Part shown: piece after piece, positions 14,229 to 50,154 of the stretch
How positions within the stretch are numbered: position 1 is the stretch's first letter
Layout: each line of letters opens with the position of its first letter
DNA from: a virus
Direction: 5' to 3' (one strand)
DNA: 64,000 bases
Virus record (IMG/VR): IMGVR_UViG_3300032431_000001
Span: 1-64,000 of that record
Translations under genes and position numbers: made by a program
The notes under the pieces: model-generated
Told to the model about the DNA's origin: nothing
What the model saw: the letters and a program-made list of their open reading frames with translations, nothing else
Database searches by the model: none

Positions 14229-14549
14229 TTAATTTTCGTCATACCACACAATGCGATCGTATGACTCAACCCAATAAAGCTGATTCGGCGTTATGGGGAA
14301 ATGACCCTCATTCTCGTCTCTCGGAAACTTAATTAAATCTTTGTCGTACAATTCTTGGGCGATCGTCACTGTTTCTTCGGGGAATTTACTCCAGTAACCT
14401 TTTGGGTATTCAGGAATGACGCGGTTTAAAAAAGTCTTTCTAGTGCAAGCGGAAATGATTTCTTTGACTTCCTCTTGTTTAACTCTACCGTCTGCGATTT
14501 GCACTATGCACACGGGAAGTGAAAGTCCGATCAAGTGCGGTTTAGACAT
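14229..14549 (-). CDS. hypothetical protein, coupled to gp25-like gene
   Basis: 106 aa. Its ATG overlaps the stop of 14549..15016 (shared nucleotide 14549). No family recognised. Confidence 0.5.
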   Translation of the reverse strand: MSKPHLIGLSLPVCIVQIADGRVKQEEVKEIISACTRKTFLNRVIPEYPKGYWSKFPEETVTIAQELYDKDLIKFPRDENEGHFPITPNQLYWVESYDRIVWYDEN

Positions 14550-34790: not shown

Positions 34791-35579
34791 ATGACTAATT
34801 TAACAGTTTTTGACTTTTCTGGCAAGAATATTCGGTTTGAGCGCCGGGGCGATCGTGTCTGGGTCAGCTTGACCGACATGGCCAAAGCATCAGGCAAATT
34901 AGTAGCAGACTATTCCCGATCTAAGTCTACCAGTGAGTTCTTAGGAGAGTTAGAGAGCATTATGGGAAATCCCATAATGCTCTCTAATGTCGGAGGAACC
35001 CCGGAAATGACGGGAACATGGGGTGTGGAAGAAGTTGCGATCGACTTTGCGGCCTGGTGTAGCGTGACGTTCAGAATATGGGTGTCTCAGCAAATCCGTA
35101 CTTTGATGACAGATGGTACGGTGACGATCGCGCCCCAATCGGAGCAGCTAAGAGTAGATTTAACTCCAAATCAGTTAGATTTGCTCCGAACATCACTGTC
35201 TAGCGTTCCCGTGCCTCTAGTAGACGGGTTACTTCTGAACGAGGTGCAGCAACATTATCCGCACCTTAAGAGTGCTGTCAACGCGGGTCATTCGTTGCTT
35301 GCAGCCACTACCGCAATTCCCGACATACTACTAACTCCAACAGCGATCGGCGAACAACTCGGAATATCAGCGCGCACTGTTAACGCCGTCTTAACGGCCA
35401 ACGACTACCAAATCAAGAACCCCAGCAAGAGCAAAACGCAGCCCGCCTATCTCCCGACTGAGAAGGGCAAACCGTATTCTTCCAACACGATCGCAACGGG
35501 TCGCGACACCGACAACACTAGCTACCAGCATATTAAGTGGGTTCAGGCGATCGTTGAGGTAGTCCGAAGCCTGATGTAG
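34791..35579 (+). CDS. KilA-N domain protein
   Basis: 262 aa. TVFDFSGKNIRFERRGDRVWVSLTDMAKASGK...STSEFLGELE...GGTPEMTGTWGVEEVAIDFAAWCSVTFRIWVSQQI fits the KilA-N pattern (..GTW.h..la..fA.W.sp.F..wv). The C-terminal part has a possible HTH (IGEQLGISARTVNAVL). Confidence 0.7.
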   Translation: MTNLTVFDFSGKNIRFERRGDRVWVSLTDMAKASGKLVADYSRSKSTSEFLGELESIMGNPIMLSNVGGTPEMTGTWGVEEVAIDFAAWCSVTFRIWVSQQIRTLMTDGTVTIAPQSEQLRVDLTPNQLDLLRTSLSSVPVPLVDGLLLNEVQQHYPHLKSAVNAGHSLLAATTAIPDILLTPTAIGEQLGISARTVNAVLTANDYQIKNPSKSKTQPAYLPTEKGKPYSSNTIATGRDTDNTSYQHIKWVQAIVEVVRSLM

Positions 35580-35733
35580 CGTTTTGCTATTCTGCTGAAA
35601 GAGGTCGCGGGATAAGAACGAGTTACCCGATCGCCCAAAAGATACAGACTTGCTCAGGTTGAGAGAGAATAGAGTTGAAAAGCTAAATTTTCGCCCCACC
35701 CTACCAGGCAGCGCCATTACAGGCGCTTTTTTT

Positions 35734-38700
35734 ATGTCCGACCAGTATGGCTTAGAGTCGAATTTTAAATTTGCTGCTTCCAGTAACTCGTTCTCGCAGA
35801 TGGATCGGGTGATTGCGCTGTTGGAAGGAATCGAACAGGCTACAAAAGAGACGGCTCAGACGATCGCCAGTACGAGCCTGGGCAAAGATTTAATGAAGTC
35901 ACTCAACGCCGATGGGGTGAAGCGGGCAAGCAAAGATATTCAGGGTGCGACCAAGAAGATTGGGAACGCGCTCAGTCCTTTGAAGACTGAATTTAGAGCA
36001 TTACGGGCGGAGTCTCGAAATATTGATTTCGGTGAAATGACGGACACGAGGCAGTTCAAGAAGGCGTCAAATGAAGTTAGCGCATACATTAAAAAGTTAA
36101 AGGAATTAGAGAAGCAAATAACGGGAACCGAGCCTGCCGATCGCGAGTTCAAGGCTGGTCTGCGATCACAGCAACGGACTGCGGGCGACAAAGTAAAAAT
36201 GGCAAAGGCGAACCGAGATGCGTCGATGGCGTCAGAACGACTGGGATTCTCGCAGGCGATCCAGGGTGGTGGACAAAGTGTGCTTGATGTGTTTGCCACC
36301 CCACTTGAATCTGCGATGGAATTGCAGAAGAGTATGGCCGGTGTGAAGAAGCTGGCCGGTGACATTAGCGAAGGCGGTAATCGGTTACTGCAAAATGAAG
36401 TTTTTAATTTATCTGCAAGATTAGGTGTTGAAGATACAAAAGTTAGTGCAATCTTTGAAGATTTAGCCGGTTCTGGTAAACAGTTTGGCGATCAGATGGG
36501 TGGCATTGGAACCCGGATCGCAGAAGTTGAGCAAATTTTAAAAAATCAACAGGCTCTTGATGTCTCTGGTGGCGCTGCAACGCAATTAGACGTAACACTG
36601 GGTTCTATTTATAAAAATTTAGTATCTAAAGATCCGCAGGCGATCGTTGAATTGAACGCAAGAGTCGCATCTAGTATCAATCAACTTGCAGATAAATTGA
36701 GCGATGTGCGGATTTCCGCAGAAGACGTTATCCCTGTAATGAACGTCGTGATGAACACCGTTGGTGACGCTGCCAATTTTCCCATTGATCAGATCGCAGC
36801 CTATTCTGCGGCGATCGCCTCGCTCGGAACTATTGAACCAGAGGCTGCGGGTTCGTTCTTCAACCGCCTGGGCGCCAAGATGTCAGAAAACACAAAGGCT
36901 TTTGCTGGCGCGTTAAATATGGACGTTGAGGATTTTGAAAAAGCATTAAATACTGACAAATTAGGTGTTGTTACAAAAGTAGCCGAAGCCTATAAAAACG
37001 TTCAAGGTGGAGAGCTTAAACAAGGTGCTTTCTTTAAGTCTATCGGAGTTGGATCTGTACAAGACCAGAAACTTTTACAGGGACTTGCCAACAATATAGA
37101 CACCCTAAAAAGTGCCAGTGTCGTTGCCAAAGGCGGCTTCTTTGGTAAAGATATTTTAGAGTTAGTAGACCCAAAAACTGGCAAAAAAGTCATGAGCTTG
37201 GGTAAAGATTTAGGAGAGTTATCAATTGATCATGAAATCGGGGAGGTAATGAAAACGGCTTACTTCCAAACCACAAGATTTGACACATCAGTGGGTGCGC
37301 TTATGAGTACCTTGGGGATTGCTTGGTTAAAAGTAATTACACCACTTAAAGCTCTTGGTGCCGATATTGCTGGTGTACTTTTAAAGGTTACTCAAGCCGC
37401 TCCTGAGCTGACAACGGCTTTAACTGTTCTAGTCGTTGGATTCGCCACGTTAGCGGCAATGGCTGGAACTGCTGGTGTTGCTTTATTTGGGTTCCAACAA
37501 GCACAGGCGATCGCCGCAACCGCAGCGATCGGAATGCAGCACAGTCTAATTCCGTTAACCGGGTTTTTTGAGACGGCGATGACCGGGTTTAAGGGGACAA
37601 ATCCTTGGACGGGCGTGTTTCGGCAGTCAACGGTACTAGCTGATGAATTTACAGTTGCGGCGAACGGTGCAAAGGGTTTGGTTGGTGGTGAATTGCGAAC
37701 TGCATTTATTGCGCTGCGTGCTCAAGTCATGATGACAAGCCAAGCCGCGTTGAGTATGGGGCGGGCATTCCTGTTGTCGCCGCTAGGGTTGGCGATCGGA
37801 TCGTTCTTGCTGTTTGATCAATTACTCCAACGGGCAAATCCTAAAGTGCGACTGCTCGGAACCTTGTTCAGCTTGTTTAGTTCCGCAGCCGGTTTTGCGT
37901 TTGGAATTCTCGAAGGCTTTGTCGGTGCGTTTCTCGAATTGTTGAAAGTTCCTGCTGGGGCTGCGGGTGGATTACTGTCTGCGCCATTTACTGCAATCTC
38001 CCAAGCTTTAGAGTTTGCGATGGAAAGTTTCAAAAACTGGGAGCGATCGGGAAAGCATATTGGTGAAAGTATTTTCAATATTTTGGCGAGTCCCTTTATT
38101 CTTGCAGCTAGCGCAACTGCCGGAGCGTGGGACAAGACAATCTCATTTATCGCCGGATTGTTAAAACCACTAGCCGACCTTGCCGCCTACATCGGTTACT
38201 TCATTCAAGGTTCTTTATCGGAGCATTCACCCGGACCTACTTCGATGATTCGACTTAAATGGGCGATCACAGCAGCATCCGTCGTCGGTAGCTTTCTGAT
38301 GATGCAAGTCTCGTCAGCAATAACTGGTTTAAAAATACGAGAAGCGATGGGCGCGGCCGCAGCCTGGGTGGTCACAAATTGGCAAGCGTCTGTCGAGAAA
38401 GTTACTAATTTCTTTGCCGGATTAACTTTACCTGACACGCTCACCAACTTTGCCACAGAAATAGGCAACGCTTGGAACAACACTTTCGGAATGATGACGA
38501 GTGGTTGGCTTAGTTTTGTGGATACCTTTACATCGACAACACCTAATTTTGGCGGGTTAGCGATGGCAGGTATGGCGGCGATGCAGCCTCTCATTGCTTG
38601 GGGGTTGCCTGACATTGTTTCCGATGGTTTTGACAAAGTGACGCAACCCCGATCGCCCGCAACCGCTCCCAAAATACTTCCTCCCACAACACCTCCACAG

Positions 38701-41700
38701 CAGTCGGAACCGATCGCCCAAATAGCAGAGCAGGTAACAGTTCAGGCGCAAGAAATCCAGACAATCTGGCAACAAATGTGGATCTGGATAGGAGACAAAG
38801 CACAACAAGGACTGGATCGCGTTCGAGGGGCGATTACAACAAATCTCGGTGCGGGGACACTCGCGTTTTTAGACAAAATTGGTGCGATCACTAGCGACAC
38901 TATACAAAACGTCACTGATGCGTTTAATCGATTCGCGGTTGAAGGGGCTACAGGAATTCAAGTTGCTGTTGGTGTCGGTTTTGCGCTGTTTGAACTTGTC
39001 AAGGGGCTGGGGGTTGTAAGCACAGTCTTTATGGACGCGGAAGGCGGTTTTTTCCATACCGCAATTGAGAATTTCAATTTGCTTGGTTTCTCCGCGTTGC
39101 TCGCCTCGTCGATGCTAATGAGTTTGGTGACCGTGCCGTTTGAAGCACTCAAAAACCTACCGCTTTTCTTTGGCACGATCGTCAGTGGTGTTACATCAGT
39201 TTTTGGACTCGGCAACGAAAAACTCTTAGAAGAAGGCGCAAGTAAATACGTTAGCTTCCTCAAGGTGTTCGATCGCCCAGGAATAGGAACTGCTATCGCC
39301 AAAGGTTTGCCAGGACTTGTCGCAGTTTTGATGGGCTTGAACGTCTTCAATCACCTAACAACAGACTGGACTGCGACGCTAATTGATTGGTCTAATCGTT
39401 TACCTGAGTTGCTATCGGGAACTGTTAACATAATTTTTCCAGCCGGACAGATGCGCGATGACGTGAATGTCGTACTAGGCGAGGTTGGTGGAATGCTGGC
39501 ATCCTTCTGGCAAGAGTTGGCCAGTTCTGCCGAGCGGGTAGGTGATTTTATTAAACCGATATTTGAGGCGATCGCCTCAATGAAAATTTTAACGATTCCC
39601 CAACTATTTGCAAACTACATGGGATTCGGCGAGGCGATGCAGCCCGTAACCGACTTCTTCCATAGCTTACCTCTACTGGGGATGCCGATGGGAGAATTTG
39701 TTGTAATTGAAGCTGCGGTCAGCGCATTTTTTGACGTACTTAAAAGCCCAACGCTTGCAGGATTTGTTGGTTTTCTGACTGGACCTTTGTTTAAAGCCGT
39801 CGTCGCAGTCGGTGCTGTATTCATAAATCTCGGTCGCACGATCGGCACCGCTTTTGTTGGGTTGCCGTTTGCGATGATTGCTGTCGCAATTAAAAATGCG
39901 GCAACTACTGGTGGAGATACAATCAAAGGAAGTTTGATAGCTCCGATTAAAACGTTCATCGTTGAACAGGCGAAACTTATTCCTGGCTTGATTTCTGCCG
40001 GCGTAACACAACTACTCAATCTTATACGGCAGATCCCGATAATCGGTAATTTTGTTGGCAACGCACTTGAAGTGGCGATCGGTGGGATCAGTAAGTTATT
40101 CGGACTGGCAGGAGAAGCGTTGCCTGGGTATCTTGGGATGCTGCGAAGCGAATTGAATATTCTTGGCACGGCACTCCGGGGTTTGTTACCTGTATTTGCT
40201 GCGGTGGGATTAAGTCTCGTCGCCGGCGGTAAGTACATCATCAATGAAGCTCTCAAACCGCTGCTGGATGCGATCGGATTTATCGGAGGCGGAGGCTTCA
40301 ATAAACTCTACATTCAGACAAAAGGGATGCAGGGTGTCACAAAAGGAGTCAACCCAGTTGACTTAGGCCTTGCAATGATGGATGACGCTCTCGTACAGCT
40401 TCAATCTAAGTTCGGTATGTTTGACGGACTTGAAGGTACCGCGCGGGAGACAGCGATGAAAGCTTCTCGACCGATCCGAAACGTGATGATGGGCATCTAC
40501 GAAACATACAGGATTTCAGCAAAAGATGTTGGTGCTAAAGTCGCAGGAGCTTCTGGGCAGCTTGGGAACGCGGTGGTGACAGCGACCGAAGAAATATTCC
40601 CGATCAGTATCTTAGGTCAAAAAATTAACCGTGTCCGCAAAGCGTATTTGGGAGGAATTGACCAAATGCGGTACGCGAAGGGATACGACAGAAAATTCGG
40701 ATTAGGGGCAATCAATGAAGGGCTTATTATGTTTAGACTGGTCGCCCCGTCAGTCATACAGCTTCTATCACGGCTTGCGTTCACTTGGATGACTTATTAC
40801 ACAGTCTTAGATGCAATTAAGCCTGCGCTACTCGACAATATCGACACATTTGCTAGAACGCATAAGCAGTTAGGCGTATTTGCTAACGTCATTTTCGTGA
40901 TCACGGGCGCGATTAGGATATTACGTTTTGCGTTAGTCGATAGCGTCAACACTGTTGTTGCTTTCGCTGTCGGCTTCTTTCAAGCGTTTCAATCACTTGC
41001 ACCGATCGCCGGGAAAGCTGCCGGAATTATCGCTTACGGTATCGGGCTGATCATTAAAGGTGCGACTCTAGGGGTGCAGATTTTAGGGGCTGTGTTGCTA
41101 CTGCCTGTTATTGCGATCAGTAAAGTAATGCAGGGAGTTTTAATTGCTGTTAAGTACGTTACTCAGCAAATAGCAGCCGAAGTTATGTCGATTATTGATG
41201 TCTTTGTAGACCTCGGGTCTGCAATATTGAAGGGCGATGTGCTTGGAGCTTTTTGGGCGATCGGTAGATTGATTCCGACCATTATTCAGGTTGTTGTAGG
41301 GATCGGCTTTTTTAAACTTGGCCGTTTTGTCGCTGCGGGTATGATTGCACTTGCGGGTGTGGTTTGGCGAATCGCCATTGACGGAATCTCGTTGCTAATT
41401 TTTAAGGTAATTCCTTACGTTGCAAAGAAAGCTTATGAGATCGGGTGGGCGATCATTTTAGGGATTGTCTGGGGAGCGCAGGCAGGATTTAAATTGTTAA
41501 TTACAACAATTTTGACAGTATTTAACATTCTAGATCAGTCTTTGATAGCAGTCGGGAATAATGTCGCCAAAGGAATGGGTATTGCATTAACAACATTTAA
41601 CCAGATGCGACAGTTTGGTGCGGGCGCTCTTGCTTTATTTGCTAGCTTTGTCTGGGTGTTGGTTTCTGTTAACGCACAAATACATTTTGTCGGCATTGGG

Positions 41701-44700
41701 TTTACATGGTTGCTTTCACTAATGGGTGGGACGGTTAGCCTGCCGATTGTCGCAGCGTTAGTGCTTGCAGCACTTTTAATATGGCAAGTAACAGATGGAT
41801 TCAAAGAACTTGACGCGATAATCAGCGCACTCAACCATCCTGTACAGTGGCTGCAAGACAGTATGTCGAACATAGCAAAGACATTTTCAGGTGGAATCAA
41901 TACTGACTGGATCGCCTTCTTTGTAGAAAAACTAATCCGCGTCATCCCGATCGTTCTCGGCGGCATATTCTTGCTCGGTTTCGCAGTTAAGAAGCACATC
42001 TTTGGCGGATTTATGCTGGTTTGGGATGTCGTCAAAGGTATCGCTAATAGTTTGATCAATGTTGTGCGATCGGCAAAGGCGATCCCAGGGGCGGTGATGG
42101 GTATTGGCACGGAAGGACGGATTTTAGAAGGTGTTCACAAAACTAGATCGACTCTAGGTCTCTACAAAGATCCACAGTCAAAAGACGCACGGGAGAATGA
42201 GTTTAAACTTGCCAAAGAGTCTGCGATGTTCAAAGACAAAGTGATTGCCAATTCTCAAGCGCAAATTTATACGCTAGCACGGGAGCAGAAGACGGATTAT
42301 GGACATTTGGCGGAAGAAGTTGAGACTACGAAGGGAGGCTTCTTCGGAATTGGAGCAAGCAAACAAAAAAAATGGCAATTGACAGGGGCGGGTGAAGAAT
42401 TCCATCAAAAAAGATTGGCGGAAACGCTTGAAGTGAAGACGGGAGTATTCGACGACAAATCATTAAAAGATGTAGCTAAAAGCGTCTCGCCAGCACGTCT
42501 CGGCATGATGCAGGGTGAAGAATTGCGGGCAATTTTTACAAAAGATCGCCCCGATTTAGCAGCCTTGGGACGCGCACTAGAGACGGTCAAAACTCAGAAT
42601 GTTGCGGTAATGAATGTCGCCAGAATGAATGGCGGTGACTCTTCTAGCAAAGATACAAGTATTGGCAAAATTAAGTACAGCAGAGGGGAACTTGAAGGGT
42701 TAAACGTTAAAGGCTTAGAGAGCGGGCAGGATAGTTTTGGAGTATCCGAACTCGGCGTTGCTCAAATAATAAAAGCACTTAAGGGATTAAACGTTCCCGC
42801 AGAACAGATGACCGATAATTATACTTCTCTCAACTCTATAACACAAAATACGAAAAAGTTTATAGCTCGGTTGCTTCAGTTTCAACTTGCAGCAGCAAGT
42901 GGAAAAATAGACAACAAAGCAGCTACGGGTGTGGCAAGTGTCTCGCACTTACAGGATCAATTTAAACTCGATACTGTAGATAGAAGCAAAATAGGAGATC
43001 CGGCTCAGTTTCACGAATTGATGAAAGACAAAGTTGCGGTACTGGAAGATGCGATGCGAAATGGGAGTCATGCTGCGCTACAAGGTTTCGATTTCAATGA
43101 TGTGGCGAATCAGTTGAAAGACTCAACTGGCGAGAGTGATTATCAGTTACGTTTAAAAGGTGTTCTCGAAAGCATGATGGCGCATCAGTTAAAAACAGTA
43201 GAGAATACGTTCAACCAGACACCTACCATTTTTGAGACAGAAGCCTCTAGGCTACGAAGTATTACAGGAGAAACGCCGAGCAAAATTTCGCACGGATTGA
43301 AGGGGATTTTTTCAGATGTTATGAGCGGTATTGGACAAGCTTTTACTAATGCCGCCAAGAAACTTCCCGGTATTAATGATAGTTTGTCGAGTGAAGCTCT
43401 GCGGGCGATCGATCGCCAGGTAGCGGGTGTTGCACCTTTAGCAGATCAAAGAGCGCAAGATTCAAGGCGATCGAAACTCGAAGCAGCGCAGCGTCAATTG
43501 CGCGAAGGTCAGTTAAATTCTGAGAAACAGCAGCAAGTTTTACAAAACATTGCGAATTTGATACAACGTGATGTTTACGAGTTGACGCACCCGACAATGA
43601 ATCCAGAGCAACTTCGCGCGCGCGTTGATCGGGCAAAAACGGAGCGCGAAAAGCTATTTAATGGGATGCGGGGTGGTAACAAATCTTTGGAGCAATGGAT
43701 CTCTCGATTCACAGCAGAAGAACAACGGGCGATCTCTCAGCAGATCAAGGAAGGTCGTTTTCGAGGTGGCGCATTGACCACCAGAGGAGTGGATCGGACG
43801 GTAACAGAAGGGACTCGGCGGGTGACTACGCCTACTTACGTCAATAACGAGGCGAGCTTAGCTCAAGCGCTGGGTTATGAAAACATTAAGCAAGTAGAGC
43901 AAGCTTTTTCTACGGATACGATACTAGAAAATGCCAAGCGAAGCTGGGGTGAACAGCTTAGACTTCTTGTTGGTATTGGTGACGATGCTAATACCTACAA
44001 CAAGCAAGTTGACGCTCTTCGCGCCCAAATAGACCAGCGTGTGAAAAGGCAGACTTCGGGATTTGCGGAACGAGAATCCCGACGAAACGCGGCTATGGCA
44101 AATCGGGAATCCGGCTTTCTCGCTCAGTTAAACCAAGTTGGCAGGAGTCGCGCAGATTTTACTACAAGACTCAACGCTACACAACAAAAAACTTTTGAAG
44201 ATTTTCTAAAGACAGGAAAACTGCAAACAGCAACATCGGATGATCAGTTCAAGGTCATGGGTAAGGAATTTGGCTTTGCCGACAACGATGCTGGCATGAA
44301 ATCTTTTAAGGACTTTCAATCAGAATTAGGGAAAGCTGAAAACAAAAATATTGCTGAATACTTTAGAACGGCGTTAGTGGACGATCCGGGAAAACTTAGA
44401 GGCAGAGGCTCTTCTTTTGTCGCGGCAGACGGCACTCAAGTAAACGATCCCAACGAGAGGATAAAAGAGTTAATAAGAAATGCTACTCCGCCAGAGGGAC
44501 GTATGGCGGCACACGATCAGTTGGACAGGCTAAGTGCAAATAGACGGCGAAGTAGTGGAAATCCCGATACAACGAGAGTGTGGGAAAGTGCGATCGACTA
44601 CCTCGCGACAGGTCGTGCGACTACGGATTTAACAGTTGAACAAATTGCAGAGATTGGTCGCGCGATGGAACTGGAAGGTGATAACGAATCTGTTGCAATG

Positions 44701-47700
44701 CAATTGCGTTCGATCGCTAATCAAAGGAATACAGGATTCGGTGCTATTACTGACAGTATCAAGCGTTTTCTCAAAAATATAGAAGTCGATGCTGAAAGTG
44801 TAGAAGAATATATTCATAATAGATTAGTGGACATGAGTTCACTTAGCGCGTTTGGTGGTCACCCTTTAGCAACGGTTAGCGATATCCTGCGAAACGTATT
44901 ATTCGAGCCAATAGTATCTTTAGTAAAAGGAACTTGGATGTGGCTGGGAAATGCAATTAATAGTATTGGTACAAATGCTGCTGCGCTAAGAACGAGAGCG
45001 ACAGGCTTGTTAACTTCATTGCCAGGTGTTAGAACTTTTGCACAGGCGAGGCAGCGGCGCGAAACCGATCGCCAAAGCAGCTTGCAAAGTCTAAGCGCCA
45101 AAATGGGCTACGAAAACCAAGAGAAATTTGCAGAAGAGTTCAAAAAAGCCTTGATTACTAGAGGTATTACCGAAGGGCGCTTACAGAATAAAGCGCTGCA
45201 AGCGGTACTCAATAGCAGGCGATCGAAAGGCGTTGCCGAAACGTTGCGGACGAGTCGTTTCCAGGAAGTTCAAGATAGTAGTCGGCAAATCGGTGAAGCT
45301 TTGGCTGCGACACTCGGACTCAATGGCAGTCCTCAAGAAATTGCAAACCTGTTAGCGCCGGGTGGATTCACTACTAGGGCGATCGCCCCTCTGAGAAACT
45401 ATTTCCTTAAAGCTGTAATTCCTGCGGTTGTTGATGTTGGGTTAGCACCTTTGAAACTGATCTGGGGAATTGTCCGCAATCCTGGTCTATCGTTGGCCGC
45501 GATCAAAACCAAGACCGGTCAAATCGCAGATGCTGTTTCTGATTTCATGGTTTCCTCATATACGACAATTCGTAGGGTATTCTCTTTCGCAGCAACGCAA
45601 CTTGGTAAGGTTCCGCTGTTTAGCAGGATCTGGGGTGCAGTTTCGGGATTCTTCGGCAAGATTGCCTCGAAGATTCAGGGCATGGCTGCACCGGCTTCGA
45701 CTCAAAGACTGCGCGAAGTACAGACTCAACGGCACGTGGCCGCGCGCGAAGCTGCGCTTGTATCCGCTCGCGCCGGTGACATTGAACCAGATCAAATAGG
45801 CCGTGTCGCTGGTGTAGCAGAAGAATCGGGTACTGGAGTAATAGGGAGGCTTAACGAGCAAATCGGCAGGCTGTCTCAGTTCCGCGCTCAAGAAGTTGCG
45901 CGCCTCAACCCATTCCAGAAATTGCTAATTTTTGCTACAACAGCCGCTAGAGGCGCTAAAAATGCCTGGGCGCAAACAGCAGAAGAGATTTCTGAAGGTG
46001 GCTGGCGCGGATTGATCTCTCGGTTTAAGCGCATCGGCTACTTACTGAAGCGGAACATATCGGAAGGATCACCCGGACCTTCTGCTGACACCCGCGAGAA
46101 CTGGGAACGCACTCAGCAGGCTGTCGGACAGAACATGGGAGAGATTGCTAACAGCGCACACGTTGCCGGTCAGCAAATCCAAGGAGATATGCAGCGCACG
46201 GCGCGTCGTTCTGCTGGATTCTTGGGTGCGATCGGTGGGGCGGTTCATGGTATGGGCAAGGCGGGTATGGCGATCGGTGGAGCTGTTACTGCTATTGGTT
46301 TCGCCGCGCAAACTGCTAGTTACTCCCTTGTTAATATGGGACTAATTGATGAAGCTAGTGCTGCGAAACTCAATAAATTCCTAGAAATTTTCACACTCAT
46401 GGGTGCAGTCGGTGGATTACTGGCTCCCGTGATGGGCGCGATCGGAGCCAGTGTTGGGGCGATCGGTTGGGCGTTTGCTTTGATATTTAACCCAGTCACT
46501 TTAACGATCGCCGCAATTACTGGTGGACTATTCCTAATTAACGAAGGATTGAAGCGATTCGCCGGAATTGATTTGCTAGGCCCGCTACTGACAAATGTGC
46601 AGCAACCATTCCAAGGGGTGATCTCCTTTATCCAGGGAAAGATTGATGAAGTGTTTGCATGGATGATGGACAAATTTGGTACGCAATTGAGTCCTATTCT
46701 TGAACCAATGAATATTGCGGTTGAGCAAATCAAAGGAGCATGGCAGGGCTTTGTGGACTGGTTTACTGCGATGCCCCTGGTACAAACGGCGATCGATATT
46801 GGAACCGGACTTATTAATGCGCTAAATCACAACCCTACAGATCAGATTCCGCTGGCATGGGAAGGCGCTGTCGAACAAATCAAAGGGATGTTATTCGGCT
46901 TGCCATTTGTTGGCGACTTTATCGCCAGTCTTCTTGAGGATTCATTAGATCCAGGTAAGATTCTCGGCAACCTATTCAGTGGTTTTGGTGGTAAAAAAGT
47001 CAAAACAGAAATTCCAGTAGAAGCTGGTGTGAAATTAAATTATAAAGATGCGTTGGAATCTGCGGTACGCCAAGCAGATTTTGACGCGCGATCTGGTTCC
47101 GCTAGCGCTCAAGCAGCATCCGCTAATTTGCAGTACCAGCTAAAAACGACTGGCGGACAGATGACGGCAGATCAACTTGGCGCAGCATACCAGGGGCCTG
47201 GTGGTGAATTCTTGCAAAAGGCGATCGCCAAAGAGAACAATCGCCTGTTCGTAGATCAAGGAATAGCAGCCAAGGAAAAACGGGAAAGTTTACAGCAGGA
47301 TCTGAAAGCACTGAACCAGCAAGAGGTCACTCTGCAAACGCAATACGCAGAGGCGATCGGGCAAGTCCAAGTTGCAGCAGCTAAATCAGCGCCAACCAAC
47401 TTCTTCCAAAGCTTGCTAGGTGGTAGTAGTGTCAGCACTCTTACTGCTCAAGCTGCGACCGTCTCGCAGTCAATGACGAGACTACAAACAGAGCGAGAGG
47501 AACTTGAGAAAAAAATAACAGACACAAGTTTTACGTTTGATTCTGGAACAGATCGAATGCTTAAAAATATGGGAATTGATCCGGCAGGGTTGAAAGTTGC
47601 GGTTGCAGAGGGCAAGGTGGCGATCGCCACGGGAATCAAGGAAGTCGGTTTGGCTGTATCAGATCGCTGGCGCTACCTAGAAAGAAGCGGTGGTGGAAAT

Positions 47701-50154
47701 CTTGGCGACATGATGAGGACTGATCTCCAAAAAACAGGTGGTGCGTTCCGTATCCTCAAAGGAGATGTCGCCGATTTTGCCCAAAAAGCAGCAACTTCAC
47801 TGATGAAAATGGACTGGGAAGGATTCAAAGGCGCGGCGGGGGATTTCTGGAGTAATTTAACTTTCGGCTTAGGGCAGATGTCTTCTGGATTTACCGGTGC
47901 TGGATTGAGCGCACTACTTTTCTCGGTTCACCTAGCACCGATCGCCTTCATTCTTGGTGGTGTTGCATTGGGTGCGCTGGCAATTTCAACTAATTTCTTA
48001 GGCTTGAGATCGATCCTAATGGGATTGTGGCGAATGTTCAGCGGATTTGTACAGATTACCGTCTCTGGGCTGATGATGATCTTGAATGTCGTGAGAGGTG
48101 TTGTGAAAGTTGTCGGGGCTATTCCCAACGCTCTTCGTGGAGACTTTACCCAGTTGGGTGAAGGTATCGAGATCGTTTGGCTAGGAGTCAAGGATGGTGC
48201 GAGAGGAATGTTTATCGGACTAAGTTCAGTCTTTGGCGGCGGACTTGAAGTTCTGGGCGGATTGTTTAAAGGGCTTCAGCAAACGATCGGTATTGTGTTT
48301 GGACCAGGGTTGATAAATTCGGCGCGAGAGGCTGTTACCGCGATCAAGCAATTATTTGATTCCGCCGGTGAGACAATTACGGCGGCACTAAGAAAACCAG
48401 GTCAAGTTTTAGATGGAATCGCTAATCGTTTTCGCAAAGGCAACGCACAAGTTGCCGATTCACCGATTGGTAGAACGGTTGGGGCGATCGCCGATGTCGC
48501 TAGCGGCAAAGCTCCAAACATGGATGCTGCCAGAGTCGCGCATGATTTTGATATGAAAATGCGTGGTAAAGACCCGGACGCTCAGCTAACCGCAGGCGAT
48601 CGGGCTCGTCTCGCACAGAGCCAAATGGAGGGCGTCGTCAATCAAGCGTTTAACACGTCACGCGGACTGGGCGCTGATATTGTCTCGCCATCTCGCGGTC
48701 AGGGAGTGCTTAGCGAAATCGATGACGAATTGAGACGTGCGGAAGCAGGGCTAGGCCGTATGAAAAACCGTAGCGTTTCCGCAGCCGACGCAACGAACGA
48801 CGCGCTTTCTTCACTGGGTATAGCGCTTAGTTCTTTTTCTCCAGCACTAGCATCGCCTTTATTTTTGGTCGGTGATCTGCTCAGCGGATTTACTGGACTT
48901 TCGCTGGCGCTACCGCGACTTGGAGTGATGTTCCCTGGGGTCGCAGTGGCGATCGGTACGTTCACAACAGCAGTAACAGCAGGCACTTGGACTGTCTCTG
49001 GAGCGATCGCAGGCTTCAGTACAGTGTTTACAGGAGCTATGGCGGGTATAAGCTCTGCTGCTTCGGTTGCTTGGGTTGCCATCAGTGGGCCGATGTTCCC
49101 AATTTTTATCCTGTTCGCTGCTTTGGCCGCCGGATTCTTGCTATTTAAAACAAATTTCTTGGGTTTTGCCGATATTGCTTCTGGTGTCTTTGATGGCGTC
49201 AAAGACATTCTTTCCGGTATCTGGGATACTGTAACCGAGGGGATTCAAGGCGTTGGTTCGCTGATAGGGTCGATCGGTGGATATCTGATCGAACCGCTCG
49301 CACCGCTACTACAACTATTTGGCATTGATGTTGGAAATGCAGGTTCTGGATTACAGACAGCATTCGTTCAGCAAGCGATTACCGCGTTATTACTGCCGAT
49401 TCGGGCGATCGGTCTGGTATTCCGCGGGATTGTTTGGAGCGTTTTTGCTGTTACAAAATCGTTACTGTGGCTAGGGGGCCTTGTTGTGCGAATTGTTCTG
49501 GCTCCGATAACACTCGTCGCTAACGCGGTTGGGGCGATCGTCCGAGGATTCCAAGCTCTCGGCTCAATCCTTGCCACGGTACTGCTCGCACCGTTCCAGT
49601 TCTTGCAAAACGTTGTGAACTGGATCTGGGGAAAACTGACGCAATTGCCTGCGTTCTTAAGTCAGGCGATCGCTAGCGTTCCTTTAATTGGCCCGCTACT
49701 TCAGAACTTAGGTAACACCATTTTCCAAAGTGGCGCACAAACTCCTGTACAGCAATTCGCATCTGGTGGCTCGGTTGTCGGGCCAGGTTCTGGTACTGCC
49801 GACAGGATACCTGCACTGCTTTCAAATGGAGAGTTTGTAGTATCAGCAAGACCCGCTCAAGAAAATATGGGTTTGCTAACCGCACTCAATGAAGGGCGTA
49901 GCGTTGAAGTAATGGCAATGCCAGCACCAACTAGAATACCGTTGGCGTTAGCAGGCAATAGTGAAACAGCACAATCTGACAATATGCCAAGACAAATGCC
50001 ACCAGTTGAGATTAATATCAACCTACAAGGCGACATAGTATTAGCGGGAACTAATTCAGCAGCAGATGCCCAAGAATTTCTCACAAAAATAGAGCCGTAC
50101 TTACAACAAGCTGTATGGGGAATGTTCCGAAATTGGGTTGATTTTAACCGTTAA
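35734..50154 (+). CDS. giant tail tape-measure-like protein (4806 aa from ATG 35734; 4834 aa from TTG 35650)
   Basis: The N-terminal region ...AMELQKSMAGVKKLAGD...NEVFNLSARLGVEDTKVSAIFEDLAGSGK resembles the TP901-type TMP core. There are many Gly/Ala-rich hydrophobic segments and coiled-coil stretches. The TMP-type SPxx motif occurs twice (SEHSPGPT 38218-38241; SEGSPGPS 46060-46083). The C-terminus is typical of TMPs: FASGGSVVGPGSGTADRIPALLSNGEFVVSA. Confidence 0.7.
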   Translation: MSDQYGLESNFKFAASSNSFSQMDRVIALLEGIEQATKETAQTIASTSLGKDLMKSLNADGVKRASKDIQGATKKIGNALSPLKTEFRALRAESRNIDFGEMTDTRQFKKASNEVSAYIKKLKELEKQITGTEPADREFKAGLRSQQRTAGDKVKMAKANRDASMASERLGFSQAIQGGGQSVLDVFATPLESAMELQKSMAGVKKLAGDISEGGNRLLQNEVFNLSARLGVEDTKVSAIFEDLAGSGKQFGDQMGGIGTRIAEVEQILKNQQALDVSGGAATQLDVTLGSIYKNLVSKDPQAIVELNARVASSINQLADKLSDVRISAEDVIPVMNVVMNTVGDAANFPIDQIAAYSAAIASLGTIEPEAAGSFFNRLGAKMSENTKAFAGALNMDVEDFEKALNTDKLGVVTKVAEAYKNVQGGELKQGAFFKSIGVGSVQDQKLLQGLANNIDTLKSASVVAKGGFFGKDILELVDPKTGKKVMSLGKDLGELSIDHEIGEVMKTAYFQTTRFDTSVGALMSTLGIAWLKVITPLKALGADIAGVLLKVTQAAPELTTALTVLVVGFATLAAMAGTAGVALFGFQQAQAIAATAAIGMQHSLIPLTGFFETAMTGFKGTNPWTGVFRQSTVLADEFTVAANGAKGLVGGELRTAFIALRAQVMMTSQAALSMGRAFLLSPLGLAIGSFLLFDQLLQRANPKVRLLGTLFSLFSSAAGFAFGILEGFVGAFLELLKVPAGAAGGLLSAPFTAISQALEFAMESFKNWERSGKHIGESIFNILASPFILAASATAGAWDKTISFIAGLLKPLADLAAYIGYFIQGSLSEHSPGPTSMIRLKWAITAASVVGSFLMMQVSSAITGLKIREAMGAAAAWVVTNWQASVEKVTNFFAGLTLPDTLTNFATEIGNAWNNTFGMMTSGWLSFVDTFTSTTPNFGGLAMAGMAAMQPLIAWGLPDIVSDGFDKVTQPRSPATAPKILPPTTPPQQSEPIAQIAEQVTVQAQEIQTIWQQMWIWIGDKAQQGLDRVRGAITTNLGAGTLAFLDKIGAITSDTIQNVTDAFNRFAVEGATGIQVAVGVGFALFELVKGLGVVSTVFMDAEGGFFHTAIENFNLLGFSALLASSMLMSLVTVPFEALKNLPLFFGTIVSGVTSVFGLGNEKLLEEGASKYVSFLKVFDRPGIGTAIAKGLPGLVAVLMGLNVFNHLTTDWTATLIDWSNRLPELLSGTVNIIFPAGQMRDDVNVVLGEVGGMLASFWQELASSAERVGDFIKPIFEAIASMKILTIPQLFANYMGFGEAMQPVTDFFHSLPLLGMPMGEFVVIEAAVSAFFDVLKSPTLAGFVGFLTGPLFKAVVAVGAVFINLGRTIGTAFVGLPFAMIAVAIKNAATTGGDTIKGSLIAPIKTFIVEQAKLIPGLISAGVTQLLNLIRQIPIIGNFVGNALEVAIGGISKLFGLAGEALPGYLGMLRSELNILGTALRGLLPVFAAVGLSLVAGGKYIINEALKPLLDAIGFIGGGGFNKLYIQTKGMQGVTKGVNPVDLGLAMMDDALVQLQSKFGMFDGLEGTARETAMKASRPIRNVMMGIYETYRISAKDVGAKVAGASGQLGNAVVTATEEIFPISILGQKINRVRKAYLGGIDQMRYAKGYDRKFGLGAINEGLIMFRLVAPSVIQLLSRLAFTWMTYYTVLDAIKPALLDNIDTFARTHKQLGVFANVIFVITGAIRILRFALVDSVNTVVAFAVGFFQAFQSLAPIAGKAAGIIAYGIGLIIKGATLGVQILGAVLLLPVIAISKVMQGVLIAVKYVTQQIAAEVMSIIDVFVDLGSAILKGDVLGAFWAIGRLIPTIIQVVVGIGFFKLGRFVAAGMIALAGVVWRIAIDGISLLIFKVIPYVAKKAYEIGWAIILGIVWGAQAGFKLLITTILTVFNILDQSLIAVGNNVAKGMGIALTTFNQMRQFGAGALALFASFVWVLVSVNAQIHFVGIGFTWLLSLMGGTVSLPIVAALVLAALLIWQVTDGFKELDAIISALNHPVQWLQDSMSNIAKTFSGGINTDWIAFFVEKLIRVIPIVLGGIFLLGFAVKKHIFGGFMLVWDVVKGIANSLINVVRSAKAIPGAVMGIGTEGRILEGVHKTRSTLGLYKDPQSKDARENEFKLAKESAMFKDKVIANSQAQIYTLAREQKTDYGHLAEEVETTKGGFFGIGASKQKKWQLTGAGEEFHQKRLAETLEVKTGVFDDKSLKDVAKSVSPARLGMMQGEELRAIFTKDRPDLAALGRALETVKTQNVAVMNVARMNGGDSSSKDTSIGKIKYSRGELEGLNVKGLESGQDSFGVSELGVAQIIKALKGLNVPAEQMTDNYTSLNSITQNTKKFIARLLQFQLAAASGKIDNKAATGVASVSHLQDQFKLDTVDRSKIGDPAQFHELMKDKVAVLEDAMRNGSHAALQGFDFNDVANQLKDSTGESDYQLRLKGVLESMMAHQLKTVENTFNQTPTIFETEASRLRSITGETPSKISHGLKGIFSDVMSGIGQAFTNAAKKLPGINDSLSSEALRAIDRQVAGVAPLADQRAQDSRRSKLEAAQRQLREGQLNSEKQQQVLQNIANLIQRDVYELTHPTMNPEQLRARVDRAKTEREKLFNGMRGGNKSLEQWISRFTAEEQRAISQQIKEGRFRGGALTTRGVDRTVTEGTRRVTTPTYVNNEASLAQALGYENIKQVEQAFSTDTILENAKRSWGEQLRLLVGIGDDANTYNKQVDALRAQIDQRVKRQTSGFAERESRRNAAMANRESGFLAQLNQVGRSRADFTTRLNATQQKTFEDFLKTGKLQTATSDDQFKVMGKEFGFADNDAGMKSFKDFQSELGKAENKNIAEYFRTALVDDPGKLRGRGSSFVAADGTQVNDPNERIKELIRNATPPEGRMAAHDQLDRLSANRRRSSGNPDTTRVWESAIDYLATGRATTDLTVEQIAEIGRAMELEGDNESVAMQLRSIANQRNTGFGAITDSIKRFLKNIEVDAESVEEYIHNRLVDMSSLSAFGGHPLATVSDILRNVLFEPIVSLVKGTWMWLGNAINSIGTNAAALRTRATGLLTSLPGVRTFAQARQRRETDRQSSLQSLSAKMGYENQEKFAEEFKKALITRGITEGRLQNKALQAVLNSRRSKGVAETLRTSRFQEVQDSSRQIGEALAATLGLNGSPQEIANLLAPGGFTTRAIAPLRNYFLKAVIPAVVDVGLAPLKLIWGIVRNPGLSLAAIKTKTGQIADAVSDFMVSSYTTIRRVFSFAATQLGKVPLFSRIWGAVSGFFGKIASKIQGMAAPASTQRLREVQTQRHVAAREAALVSARAGDIEPDQIGRVAGVAEESGTGVIGRLNEQIGRLSQFRAQEVARLNPFQKLLIFATTAARGAKNAWAQTAEEISEGGWRGLISRFKRIGYLLKRNISEGSPGPSADTRENWERTQQAVGQNMGEIANSAHVAGQQIQGDMQRTARRSAGFLGAIGGAVHGMGKAGMAIGGAVTAIGFAAQTASYSLVNMGLIDEASAAKLNKFLEIFTLMGAVGGLLAPVMGAIGASVGAIGWAFALIFNPVTLTIAAITGGLFLINEGLKRFAGIDLLGPLLTNVQQPFQGVISFIQGKIDEVFAWMMDKFGTQLSPILEPMNIAVEQIKGAWQGFVDWFTAMPLVQTAIDIGTGLINALNHNPTDQIPLAWEGAVEQIKGMLFGLPFVGDFIASLLEDSLDPGKILGNLFSGFGGKKVKTEIPVEAGVKLNYKDALESAVRQADFDARSGSASAQAASANLQYQLKTTGGQMTADQLGAAYQGPGGEFLQKAIAKENNRLFVDQGIAAKEKRESLQQDLKALNQQEVTLQTQYAEAIGQVQVAAAKSAPTNFFQSLLGGSSVSTLTAQAATVSQSMTRLQTEREELEKKITDTSFTFDSGTDRMLKNMGIDPAGLKVAVAEGKVAIATGIKEVGLAVSDRWRYLERSGGGNLGDMMRTDLQKTGGAFRILKGDVADFAQKAATSLMKMDWEGFKGAAGDFWSNLTFGLGQMSSGFTGAGLSALLFSVHLAPIAFILGGVALGALAISTNFLGLRSILMGLWRMFSGFVQITVSGLMMILNVVRGVVKVVGAIPNALRGDFTQLGEGIEIVWLGVKDGARGMFIGLSSVFGGGLEVLGGLFKGLQQTIGIVFGPGLINSAREAVTAIKQLFDSAGETITAALRKPGQVLDGIANRFRKGNAQVADSPIGRTVGAIADVASGKAPNMDAARVAHDFDMKMRGKDPDAQLTAGDRARLAQSQMEGVVNQAFNTSRGLGADIVSPSRGQGVLSEIDDELRRAEAGLGRMKNRSVSAADATNDALSSLGIALSSFSPALASPLFLVGDLLSGFTGLSLALPRLGVMFPGVAVAIGTFTTAVTAGTWTVSGAIAGFSTVFTGAMAGISSAASVAWVAISGPMFPIFILFAALAAGFLLFKTNFLGFADIASGVFDGVKDILSGIWDTVTEGIQGVGSLIGSIGGYLIEPLAPLLQLFGIDVGNAGSGLQTAFVQQAITALLLPIRAIGLVFRGIVWSVFAVTKSLLWLGGLVVRIVLAPITLVANAVGAIVRGFQALGSILATVLLAPFQFLQNVVNWIWGKLTQLPAFLSQAIASVPLIGPLLQNLGNTIFQSGAQTPVQQFASGGSVVGPGSGTADRIPALLSNGEFVVSARPAQENMGLLTALNEGRSVEVMAMPAPTRIPLALAGNSETAQSDNMPRQMPPVEININLQGDIVLAGTNSAADAQEFLTKIEPYLQQAVWGMFRNWVDFNR

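What the first reader, a model, noticed from the sequence alone, without database searches (positions are those of the whole stretch)
35734..50154. A 14.4-kb tape-measure-like gene (about 4800 aa)
One uninterrupted ORF makes up 22% of the window. It has TMP hallmarks at both ends: a TP901-type core-like N-terminal region, and a C-terminal GG.V.GPGSGTADRIPALLSNGEFVV motif. In between are dozens of Gly/Ala-rich hydrophobic segments and coiled coils. In lambda-like phages the tail length scales at roughly 0.15 nm per TMP residue. A ruler of this size would therefore specify a tail of roughly 0.7 micrometre, well beyond typical siphoviruses and myoviruses. No gpG/GT-type chaperone pair with a slippery site precedes it; a KilA-N gene does. 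The gene is packed with HIP1 sites yet remains intact, which suggests selection. Alternatively it is a non-ruler giant membrane-active or ejection protein.
Basis: partly seen in the sequence, partly recalled or inferred. Interest (0 to 1): 0.7.

Follow-up and report, generated by a model that had tools for sequence, protein, structure and literature searches.

The report
Giant tape-measure gene of a cyanophage
The 14.4-kb gene is real and is a very divergent, hugely expanded phage tail tape-measure protein from a family (up to 7,615 residues) carried by ~170-225-kb phage-like contigs, several of them binned with filamentous cyanobacteria; it probably specifies a tail of about 0.7 micrometre or more, but no particle has been seen.

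Summary
Observation confirmed. ATG 35734 to stop 50154 is one open frame of 4,806 aa. Two independent assemblies carry the identical protein. Orthologues at 75% identity stay intact (4,834 and 4,843 aa) with dN/dS of about 0.09 along the whole length.

Interpretation supported. Pfam and NCBIfam TMP models miss the protein. However, a profile of its family aligns residues 181-560 to canonical PF10145 tape-measure cores (99.6%, E=1e-23). The C-terminal motif matches PDB chains deposited as tape measure protein. A normal 904-aa PF10145 TMP is collinear with both ends.

The gene belongs to a family of 39 complete proteins of 904-7,615 aa (38 are 1,814 aa or more; median 5,684) with almost no cysteine. 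They sit on phage-like contigs of 169-224 kb, several binned with filamentous cyanobacteria. IMG already labels six of them TP901-family TMPs.

A cultured analogue exists: Nodularia phage vB_NpeS-2AV2 has a 3,404-aa TMP and a 795-nm tail. Its TMP gene also lies away from the tail module, beside a dnaN gene.

Not shown: the tail length (721 nm at 0.15 nm/aa is inferred), prophage status, and tail type. A gp25-like baseplate gene hints at a contractile tail, but no sheath or tube gene was found.

Verdict: an extreme new member of a known kind.

The parts
35734..50154 (+). Giant tape-measure-protein gene, 4,806 aa, about 512 kDa, no cysteine
   Evidence: ORF. Identical protein in two other assemblies. 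dN/dS 0.08-0.10 against orthologues of 4,843 and 4,834 aa. Belongs to a family of giant homologues.
35734..36303 (+). Conserved N-terminal segment (aa 1-190), family signature M..(D)xYGL.A.F
   Evidence: Aligns from residue 1 in about 45 family members. 49.5% identical to the N-terminus of P0002, a canonical PF10145 TMP.
36274..37413 (+). Divergent TP901/PF10145-type TMP core (aa 181-560)
   Evidence: hhalign of the family profile against canonical PF10145 TMPs: 99.7%, E=2.8e-25; 99.6%, E=1.4e-23 without P0002. phmmer links to eight PF10145 proteins. tblastn to the Staphylococcus phage HHU-22 TMP, E=1e-6. The Pfam model itself does not hit.
37351..42033 (+). Hydrophobic Gly/Ala-rich block (aa 540-2100) holding about 20 of the 31 hydrophobic segments
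   Evidence: Hydropathy profile. aa 540-900 and 1075-2200 are conserved in family members.
42034..45333 (+). Charged, predicted all-helical central block (aa 2101-3200)
   Evidence: 25-31% charged residues. An AF2 single-sequence model of aa 2090-3289 has only helices and coil, with no strands, but low confidence (pLDDT 40). dN/dS 0.02-0.06 against U199.
45931..46983 (+). Repeatable TMP module (aa 3400-3750)
   Evidence: phrog_58 'tail length tape measure protein', E=8e-6. The same module aligns to about eight places in the 7,556-aa member P0004 and to several in P0017.
48721..50151 (+). Conserved C-terminal module (aa 4330-4806), inferred tail-tip end of the ruler
   Evidence: Aligns to the very C-terminus of about 40 family members. 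Aligns to P0002 residues 477-903, E=7e-19.
49765..49842 (+). Motif GGSVVGPGSGTADRIPALLSNGEFVV
   Evidence: Matches PDB 8zdo_S 'Tape measure protein (gp16)', E=1.5e-9, and 8rk3_A, E=2.4e-5. Matches annotated TMPs of Nodularia phages and EBPR siphovirus 1.
34791..35579 (+). KilA-N domain regulator directly upstream; not a chaperone
   Evidence: Pfam KilA-N E=2.8e-14, phrog_129 E=2.5e-22. A KilA-N gene also flanks the 7,556-aa homologue in L007.
1045..2427 (-). Portal protein, marking the region as a tailed-phage genome
   Evidence: phrog_2662 E=9e-15. Precomputed PF04860 Phage_portal. 85% identical orthologue on the 199,763-bp IMG/VR contig.
14549..15016 (-). gp25-like baseplate wedge protein (candidate)
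   Evidence: Pfam GPW_gp25 E=0.0011, below the gathering score. phrog_43 baseplate wedge E=0.0013. PDB 7aeb_S 'Putative tail lysozyme' E=1.5e-4 over nearly the full length, followed by far weaker matches to 9gtp_V (Gp25-like, E=0.81) and 7b5h_AI (All3318, E=1.3).

Best explanation
The ORF encodes the tail tape-measure protein of a large tailed phage. The genome is probably about 190-200 kb and the host a filamentous cyanobacterium.

Shown: it is homologous to TP901/PF10145-type tape measures at the N-terminal core and at the C-terminal module. It sits in a genome with a portal gene. It is one member of a family with conserved ends and a modular middle of very variable length. The whole length is under purifying selection.

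Inferred from established TMP biology (lambda gpH; TP901-1 TMP at 0.145-0.15 nm per residue, PMC5099701):
- Several copies of the mostly helical, cysteine-free chain lie extended inside the tail tube.
- The conserved C-terminal module is anchored in the tail-tip or baseplate complex.
- Tube polymerisation stops when it reaches the N-terminal end.
- Tail length is therefore set at about 0.72 micrometre. It would be about 1.1 micrometre at the 0.234 nm per residue calculated for the cultured Nodularia phage 2AV2.

On infection the protein would be expelled first. Its roughly 31 hydrophobic Gly/Ala-rich segments would insert into the envelope to line a DNA conduit. A very long tail would let the phage reach the cell through thick sheath or mucilage layers; this last step is speculation.
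For: - ORF integrity and independent assemblies.
- Purifying selection with near-constant length in orthologues at 75% identity: 4,806, 4,834 and 4,843 aa, dN/dS 0.08-0.10, every 400-aa window at or below 0.17 where it could be estimated (dS was saturated in one window of each comparison).
- N-terminal core aligned to PF10145 by profile-profile comparison: 99.7% and 99.6%, with supporting links.
- Collinearity with the 904-aa PF10145 TMP P0002 at both ends.
- C-terminal motif in PDB TMP chains and in annotated cyanophage TMPs.
- PHROG TMP hit in the repeated module.
- The 6,706-aa homologue has a PF10145 hit and aligns over 93% of the window protein.
- IMG names six giants 'TP901 family phage tail tape measure protein'.
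- No cysteine in 4,806 aa, and near zero across the family.
- Phage context: portal, synteny with IMG/VR contigs including one of 199,763 bp, and family contigs of 169-224 kb.
- Cultured precedent: vB_NpeS-2AV2 has a 795-nm tail (PMC6293099) and a 3,404-aa cysteine-free TMP placed away from the tail module beside dnaN.
Against: - No curated TMP model (Pfam, NCBIfam) hits the window protein directly.
- The N-terminus has no PDB match.
- The gene is not in the canonical chaperone-TMP-tip order, and no neighbour is conserved across the family.
- No tube, sheath, capsid or terminase gene was identified in the window or in about 60 kb of relatives.
- No particle, proteome or tail measurement exists.
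- About a third of the protein is strongly hydrophobic, more than in well-studied TMPs, so part of it may not serve as a straight ruler.
- The 2AV2 ratio of 0.234 nm per residue exceeds the helical rise. The simple scaling is therefore imperfect even in the precedent.
Confidence: 0.72

Rival explanations
1. It is TMP-derived, but only part of it measures the tail. The core and C-terminal module work as in ordinary TMPs. Much of the roughly 4,200-aa insert is cargo: a membrane- and envelope-spanning conduit or effector, stored compactly in the lumen or partly in the capsid. The tail would then be much shorter than 0.7 micrometre.
For: The protein has 31 hydrophobic segments and 25 long uncharged stretches. 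Family lengths vary four-fold between related phages, and the variation comes from module gain and loss. By my own estimate, three copies would fill only about 20% of a 4-nm by 720-nm lumen, so more compact storage is physically possible. No tail-tube gene was found from which to judge investment in tube protein.
Against: Length is held nearly constant (plus or minus 0.4%) in orthologues at 75% identity. Every block is under purifying selection. No enzymatic or globular domain is detected anywhere. The central block is predicted as helix and coil only (low confidence). In TP901-1, hydrophobic regions also contribute to tail length (PMC5099701). The cultured 3,404-aa TMP goes with a 795-nm tail.
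Confidence: 0.2
2. It is not a tail component. It would be a giant capsid-internal ejection protein, or a component of a non-viral contractile injection or secretion system that merely borrowed TMP-like ends.
For: The gene lies among replication and regulatory genes, not tail genes. The best PDB matches of the gp25-like neighbour are CIS proteins. Many flanking genes have no known function.
Against: Both ends are collinear with a bona fide PF10145 TMP. The C-terminal motif is found in solved tail TMP chains. A portal gene and synteny with IMG/VR viral contigs are present. The cultured Nodularia siphovirus has the same displaced TMP arrangement.
Confidence: 0.05
3. It is an artefact or a decaying gene: a mis-assembled, chimeric or pseudogenised reading frame.
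For: The Richelia MAG homologue (4.8x coverage) shows one frame change. One contig with the gene changes context at IS elements.
Against: The identical 4,806-aa product is in two other assemblies. Intact orthologues of 4,834 and 4,843 aa exist with dN/dS of about 0.09. There are 39 complete homologues with matching termini.
Confidence: 0.01

Closest known systems
TP901-1-type tail tape measure proteins (Pfam PF10145 PhageMin_Tail / TIGR01760)
   Same: The N-terminal core is homologous by profile-profile alignment. It is followed by hydrophobic segments, a helical body and a conserved C-terminal module. The presumed function is the same: a ruler at 0.145-0.15 nm per residue (PMC5099701) plus a DNA-conduit role.
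   Different: It is 5-6 times longer than typical members (TP901-1 TMP is 937 aa by my recollection; the canonical relatives found here are 800-1,500 aa). The core is too divergent for the Pfam and NCBIfam models. It is not flanked by chaperone or tail-tip genes. It has about 31 hydrophobic segments.
Nodularia phage vB_NpeS-2AV2 gp176 tape measure protein (Ravarandavirus; 3,404 aa; 795-nm tail)
   Same: It is a giant, cysteine-free TMP in a large phage of a filamentous cyanobacterium. The gene is displaced from the head and tail module and lies near dnaN. The genome has KilA-N regulators and IS200/IS605 elements. It shares the GPG..D..PA.L..GEFV module (E=5e-10). It is the only cultured evidence found here that such a TMP goes with a near-micrometre tail (PMC6293099).
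   Different: It is not an orthologue. Only about 100 aa align, and the motif sits at residue 1008 of 3,404 rather than at the C-terminus. The family N-terminal profile does not match it. No structural genes are shared with the window. The window protein is 41% longer, and family members reach 2.2 times its length.
Lambda gpH and T5 pb2 type tape measures (ruler plus membrane channel)
   Same: The proposed mechanism is the same: the C-terminus sits at the tail tip, length is determined by the extended protein, and on ejection hydrophobic segments insert into the envelope. This rests on established knowledge and was not tested here.
   Different: No sequence similarity was detected, and the scale differs by 4-6 fold.
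TMP chains in solved tails: PDB 8zdo_S (gp16, 1,699 aa) and 8rk3_A (1,158 aa)
   Same: They share the GG..GPG.G..D.IPA..S.GEF motif. In 8zdo_S it occurs twice, which shows the module can be repeated or internal.
   Different: Similarity is limited to about 50 residues.

Membership tests
Phage tail tape measure protein, TP901/PF10145 type | Direct match to the curated core-domain model (PF10145 / TIGR01760) | tested here: not met
   No hit on the whole protein or on aa 1-600, even at E up to 10.
Phage tail tape measure protein, TP901/PF10145 type | Homology of the core region to bona fide members, by a more sensitive method | tested here: met
   hhalign gives 99.7% (E=2.8e-25) and, without P0002, 99.6% (E=1.4e-23) for aa 181-560. 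phmmer links to eight proteins that pass the PF10145 gathering score. The 6,706-aa homologue carries PF10145.
Phage tail tape measure protein, TP901/PF10145 type | C-terminal TMP module or motif shared with experimentally visualised TMPs | tested here: met
   PDB 8zdo_S E=1.5e-9 and 8rk3_A E=2.4e-5. C-terminal 405 aa aligned to P0002, E=7e-19.
Phage tail tape measure protein, TP901/PF10145 type | Elongated helical protein without globular enzymatic domains and with few or no cysteines | tested here: inconclusive
   No cysteine in 4,806 aa and no Pfam domain. The AF2 central block is helix and coil only, but pLDDT is 40. No coiled-coil predictor was run.
Phage tail tape measure protein, TP901/PF10145 type | Gene position: after tail tube and G/GT frameshift chaperones, before distal tail or tip genes | tested here: not met
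   The upstream gene is KilA-N and the downstream ORFs are unknown. No neighbour is conserved across the family. The cultured phage 2AV2 also fails this feature, so it is not universal.
Phage tail tape measure protein, TP901/PF10145 type | Encoded in a tailed-phage genome | tested here: met
   Portal gene. Synteny with IMG/VR contigs of 44.6 and 199.8 kb. gp25-like baseplate candidate.
Phage tail tape measure protein, TP901/PF10145 type | Protein length determines tail length, and the protein is present in the virion tail lumen | not testable with these tools
   This needs particles: EM, proteomics, or deletion and duplication mutants.
Ravarandavirus-type giant TMP (Nodularia phage gp176 orthologue) | Full-length orthology to gp176 | tested here: not met
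   Only aa 4675-4763 align to gp176 residues 986-1091. The family N-terminal HMM gives no hit.
Contractile (myovirus or CIS-type) tail | gp25/W-like baseplate wedge protein | tested here: inconclusive
   Window 14549-15016(-) gives three concordant but weak hits: Pfam E=1.1e-3 (below cut-off), PHROG E=1.3e-3, PDB 7aeb_S E=1.5e-4.
Contractile (myovirus or CIS-type) tail | gp6/J-like wedge protein, sheath and tube genes | tested here: inconclusive
   A 398-aa ORF in the 200-kb relative hits phrog_6, E=7e-8, but has no PDB support. No sheath or tube gene was detected in the window. Most of the ~200-kb genome was not examined.
Prophage | Integrase, attachment sites and flanking host genes | tested here: not met
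   No tRNA. The only recombinase-like ORF belongs to an IS607-like element. The window is syntenic with viral contigs through to dnaN. The one contig that runs into DnaJ/TusA switches context exactly at IS elements.

The most novel reading that the evidence does not exclude
The window gene marks an uncultured clade of roughly 170-225-kb phages of filamentous cyanobacteria. Their tape measures (median 5,684 aa, up to 7,615 aa) would specify the longest tails in the known virosphere: 0.7 to 1.1 micrometre at 0.15 nm per residue, and up to 1.8 micrometre at the ratio seen in Nodularia phage 2AV2. These tails may sit on a contractile-type baseplate. This clade could be the genetic counterpart of the 'extremely long-tailed' particles seen by EM in environmental samples.
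Probability: 0.4. Interest if true: 0.75.

Novelty: new member of a known kind. Interest (0 to 1): 0.55.

Why it matters
If the ruler rule holds, this family gives sequence-level handles on phages with micrometre-long tails. The window protein is 1.4 times, and the largest relatives 2.2 times, the size of the largest TMP found here that is tied to a measured tail (3,404 aa, 795 nm).

Three things follow:
- The family tests how far the tape-measure mechanism scales. A 0.72-micrometre tail needs about 180 tube rings at roughly 4 nm per ring (my estimate, from general knowledge of tail-tube rise).
- It offers a natural length series (1,814-7,615 aa with homologous ends) for studying how modules are added.
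- It may explain how phages reach cells buried in thick cyanobacterial sheaths.

There is also a practical lesson. Curated TMP models miss this protein, so such giant genes are likely to be left as 'hypothetical' in MAGs. The Crinalium, Leptolyngbyaceae and Phormidesmis entries are labelled that way.

Tried and rejected
- The whole-protein search of the 5.8-billion collection timed out. The N-terminal 700 aa found only two relatives through the word index. The exhaustive search was needed to reveal the family.
- Megablast against phages and plasmids gave nothing.
- Self-BLASTP showed no internal repeats at E<1e-3. Weak module repetition only became visible through family members.
- AF2 of the 1,012-aa protein with a 13-sequence alignment failed (pLDDT 31). 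AF2 of the giant's central block had pLDDT 40. No fold search was run on either model, because the matches would be meaningless.
- I suspected the three tandem ~150-aa paralogues (7870-9414) of being tube proteins. I dropped the idea: they are helical, acidic and carry a conserved Cys, and they have no PDB match.
- Walking leftwards along the 200-kb IMG/VR contig yielded non-structural, Cys-rich and ATPase-like ORFs.
- PDB sequence searches of the 1,012-aa, 375-aa and 279-aa ORFs, the N-terminal 600 aa, and 25 further concatenated unannotated ORFs were all negative.
- Orthology with the Nodularia TMP is rejected.
- I rejected the DnaJ/TusA continuation of contig L002 as evidence of a prophage junction, because identity to the window ends exactly at IS elements on both sides.
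- Literature searches found no description of tape measures of this size.
Full report
**1. The observation**

The window contains one stop-free frame from 35650 to 50154 on the + strand. The ATG at 35734 gives 4,806 residues, about 512 kDa. Close orthologues start with the same MSDQYGLESNF, so 35734 is the likely start.

The gene is not an assembly accident. Exactly the same 4,806-aa product is encoded on an ENA metagenome contig (30 kb) and on a Logan assembly of SRR5468153 (18 kb). The latter is 100% identical to the window over 17.9 kb.

Two IMG/VR contigs carry intact orthologues of 4,843 and 4,834 aa at about 75% amino-acid identity. Synonymous sites are saturated (dS about 2). Whole-gene dN/dS is 0.08-0.10, and no 400-aa window in which it could be estimated exceeds 0.17. 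A 46-60% identical homologue in a Richelia MAG is open for at least 3,900 aa, apart from one frame change in a 4.8x-coverage contig.

A KilA-N gene precedes the ORF. There are 31 separate strongly hydrophobic segments. HIP1 is enriched about 38-fold in the window, but the gene has only 9 sites, all read as Ala-Ile-Ala.

**2. What the protein is**

Curated models do not recognise it. Pfam and NCBIfam give no tape-measure hit. PHROGs gives one weak TMP hit at aa 3410-3721.

The link to tape measures comes from intermediates.

- P0002, a 904-aa protein from a TARA contig, has a strong PF10145 domain (E=3e-50). It aligns to the window protein at both ends: P0002 1-105 with giant 83-191 (49.5% identity), and P0002 477-903 with giant 4402-4806 (E=7e-19).
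- The exhaustive HMMER search with aa 1-1200 returned 65 proteins. The weakest ones, 800-1,500 aa long, all pass the PF10145 gathering score. In each, the PF10145 domain overlaps the stretch that aligns to the window protein.
- A profile of 18 family N-termini aligns to a profile of these canonical TMPs with 99.7% probability (E=2.8e-25). With P0002 removed it is 99.6% (E=1.4e-23) over giant residues 181-560.
- The C-terminal motif matches PDB chains deposited as tape measure proteins: 8zdo_S at E=1.5e-9 and 8rk3_A at E=2.4e-5. It also matches annotated TMPs of Nodularia phages and of EBPR siphovirus 1.

The protein has no cysteine, 0.6% His and 1.0% Tyr. No enzymatic domain is detected anywhere.

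**3. The family**

The same search showed that the window protein is not a lone oddity. Thirty-nine proteins have both the conserved N-terminus and a C-terminus that aligns to their last residues. One is the ordinary-sized 904-aa P0002. The other 38 range from 1,814 to 7,615 aa, and the overall median is 5,684. The window's 4,806 aa is therefore below the family median.

Cysteine is absent or nearly absent in all of them.

Alignments are collinear and modular. The N-terminal module is 1-900. A weakly conserved hydrophobic region spans 1075-2200. The module at 3400-3750 is the PHROG-positive part, and it recurs in about eight places in the 7,556-aa member. Another module spans 3960-4230, and the C-terminal module spans 4330-4806. 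P0026 (6,706 aa) carries a PF10145 hit and aligns over 93% of the window protein.

IMG's pipeline already calls six of the giants 'TP901 family phage tail tape measure protein'. NCBI MAG entries from Crinalium, Leptolyngbyaceae and Phormidesmis call them hypothetical.

**4. Context**

The window has a portal gene at 1045-2427(-). It is syntenic with the two IMG/VR contigs from about 28 kb to 62 kb. That stretch includes two clamp-like fusion genes, a DndB-like gene, the giant gene and a complete dnaN. The TnpB-type element at 52.8-54.4 kb and the group II intron at 57.2-59.0 kb are insertions specific to the window.

Family members sit repeatedly on contigs of 169-224 kb. That suggests genomes near the jumbo range.

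Their neighbourhoods are dense with unannotated genes. The annotated ones are helicases, methyltransferases, KilA-N, a peptidase M15 and DUF5131. No gene family is consistently adjacent to the giant gene, so no chaperone partner can be proposed.

I found no evidence that the window is a prophage. There is no tRNA, no integrase and no clear host gene. The only contig that runs into DnaJ/TusA changes context exactly at IS elements.

**5. A cultured precedent**

Nodularia phage vB_NpeS-2AV2 is 139 kb, has a 95-nm capsid and has a 795-nm tail (PMC6293099 Table 1). It is annotated with a 3,404-aa tape measure, gp176. That protein also lacks cysteine.

The gp176 gene lies about 100 kb from the major tail protein gene, next to a DNA polymerase III beta gene. 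The genome also holds KilA-N regulators and IS200/IS605 transposases. The missing G/GT pair and the unusual neighbours are therefore not arguments against a tape measure in this group of phages.

gp176 is not an orthologue. Only the roughly 100-aa motif module aligns (E=5e-10), and in gp176 it is internal. The window shares only dnaN, TnpB, KilA-N and a helicase with that phage.

**6. How it most likely works**

What follows is inference from established TMP biology. In TP901-1, about 810 residues span 118 nm, which is 0.145 nm per residue. Deletions shorten the tail in proportion, including a deletion of transmembrane segments (PMC5099701).

Applied here, 4,806 residues give about 720 nm. The empirical 2AV2 ratio (795/3,404 = 0.234 nm per residue) gives about 1.1 micrometre. 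For the 7,615-aa member the figures are 1.1 and 1.8 micrometre.

Near-constant length among orthologues at 75% identity fits a length constraint. The central charged block is modelled as helix and coil only, but at low confidence. The hydrophobic segments would form the envelope conduit after ejection, as proposed for other TMPs.

A long tail could help the phage cross thick sheaths. The TP901-1 authors raise the same idea for surface polysaccharide. For this phage it is speculation.

**7. Tail type is unresolved**

The 155-aa ORF at 14549-15016(-) gives three concordant weak hits to gp25-like baseplate wedge proteins. These are Pfam at E=1.1e-3 (below cut-off), PHROG at E=1.3e-3, and PDB 7aeb_S at E=1.5e-4 over nearly the full length. 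The next PDB hits, a Gp25-like protein (E=0.81) and Anabaena All3318 (E=1.3), are far weaker.

A 398-aa ORF near the portal in the 200-kb relative hits the PHROG 'baseplate wedge subunit' (E=7e-8). It has no PDB support.

These hits point to a contractile-type baseplate. Even so, no sheath or tube gene was found in the window or in the roughly 60 kb of relatives I could read. Most of the ~200-kb genome remains unseen.

**8. Comparison and novelty**

The protein works like, and is homologous to, TP901-type tape measures. It fails the direct model test and the gene-order criterion. It meets the sensitive-homology, C-terminal-motif and phage-context criteria.

Giant tape measures linked to near-micrometre tails are already known from one cultured cyanophage. 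Annotation pipelines have labelled some members of this very family. I found no paper describing tape measures of this size. Environmental EM has reported siphoviruses with extremely long tails (PMC11500664).

I rate the finding as an extreme new member of a known kind. It is of moderate interest in itself, and of higher interest if micrometre tails are confirmed.

Noticed in passing
window 28076-30193 (-), 30283-32256 (+), 60850-62019 (+): The region has three sliding-clamp-related genes. Two are unusual fusions: a 705-aa protein with only a DNA_pol3_beta N-domain at aa 370-462, and a 657-aa protein with a weak central-domain hit and a Cys-rich C-terminus. The third is a complete dnaN, 32% identical to Nodularia phage gp179. 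All three are syntenic in the IMG/VR relatives.
   Followed up: partly
window 32299-33489 (-): A DndB-like gene (PF14072, E=5e-52; DNA-sulfur-modification associated) lies two genes upstream of the giant gene and is conserved in the viral relatives. Its role in a phage is unknown.
   Followed up: no
window 19483-20685 (-), 26211-27389 (-), 52784-54437 (+), 57250-58971 (-): The window has a heavy load of mobile elements: two TnpB (IS605-type) genes, an IS607-like pair (a serine-recombinase-like ORF overlapping a 526-aa TnpB-like ORF) and a group II intron RT/maturase/HNH. The 52.4-54.4 kb and 57-59.5 kb segments are absent from both IMG/VR relatives, so they are recent insertions.
   Followed up: partly
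window 14549-15016 (-): A 155-aa ORF gives three concordant weak hits to gp25-like baseplate wedge proteins of contractile systems (Pfam, PHROG, PDB 7aeb_S). This hints that the phage may have a contractile-type baseplate, although no sheath gene was found.
   Followed up: partly
window 7870-8310, 8357-8869, 8992-9414 (+); L019 142-1830: Three tandem paralogues of about 140-170 aa sit here. They are helical and acidic with a conserved Cys. They are also triplicated in the 200-kb relative. Their function is unknown and they do not look like tail-tube proteins.
   Followed up: partly
window 23318-23719 and 23833-24231 (-); window 50558-50743 vs 50825-51010: A pair of tandem paralogous ORFs is 85% identical at the nucleotide level. 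Separately, a 187-bp direct repeat lies inside the 375-aa ORF immediately downstream of the giant gene.
   Followed up: no
window 19191-19448 vs 59311-59568: A 258-bp inverted repeat (95% identical) joins the flank of a TnpB gene and the region between the group II intron and the 395-aa ORF. It may be an IS end or a TnpB-associated RNA region.
   Followed up: no
window 2549-4668 (+); L005 40796-42845; L007 32680-42672: A gene pair of about 120 aa plus 585 aa next to the portal is one of the few modules shared with distant family loci. The larger protein has four paralogues clustered beside the 7,556-aa gene in L007. It gives only a weak 'minor head protein' PHROG hit (E=1e-3).
   Followed up: partly
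L002 (ENA ERZ27246954 k141_966940) 344-28085 vs window 26723-54461: This contig carries the identical giant gene but leaves window identity exactly at IS elements on both sides and continues into DnaJ and TusA genes. This is either a chimeric join at repeated IS copies or a real host junction; it is unresolved.
   Followed up: partly
L011/L014 (Nodularia phage vB_NpeS-2AV2 gp176, record 124378-134592): The cultured phage's 795-nm tail divided by its 3,404-aa TMP gives 0.234 nm per residue, well above the 0.147-0.15 nm helical rise. Its TMP motif sits at residue 1008, not at the C-terminus. The simple ruler constant may not hold for giant cyanophage TMPs.
   Followed up: no
L004 (Richelia sp. 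CSU_2_1 MAG, JAAUPF010000169.1) about nt 4130-4215: The homologous giant gene shows a single frame change in a 4.8x-coverage contig. This is probably a sequencing error, but a real split or programmed frameshift was not excluded.
   Followed up: no
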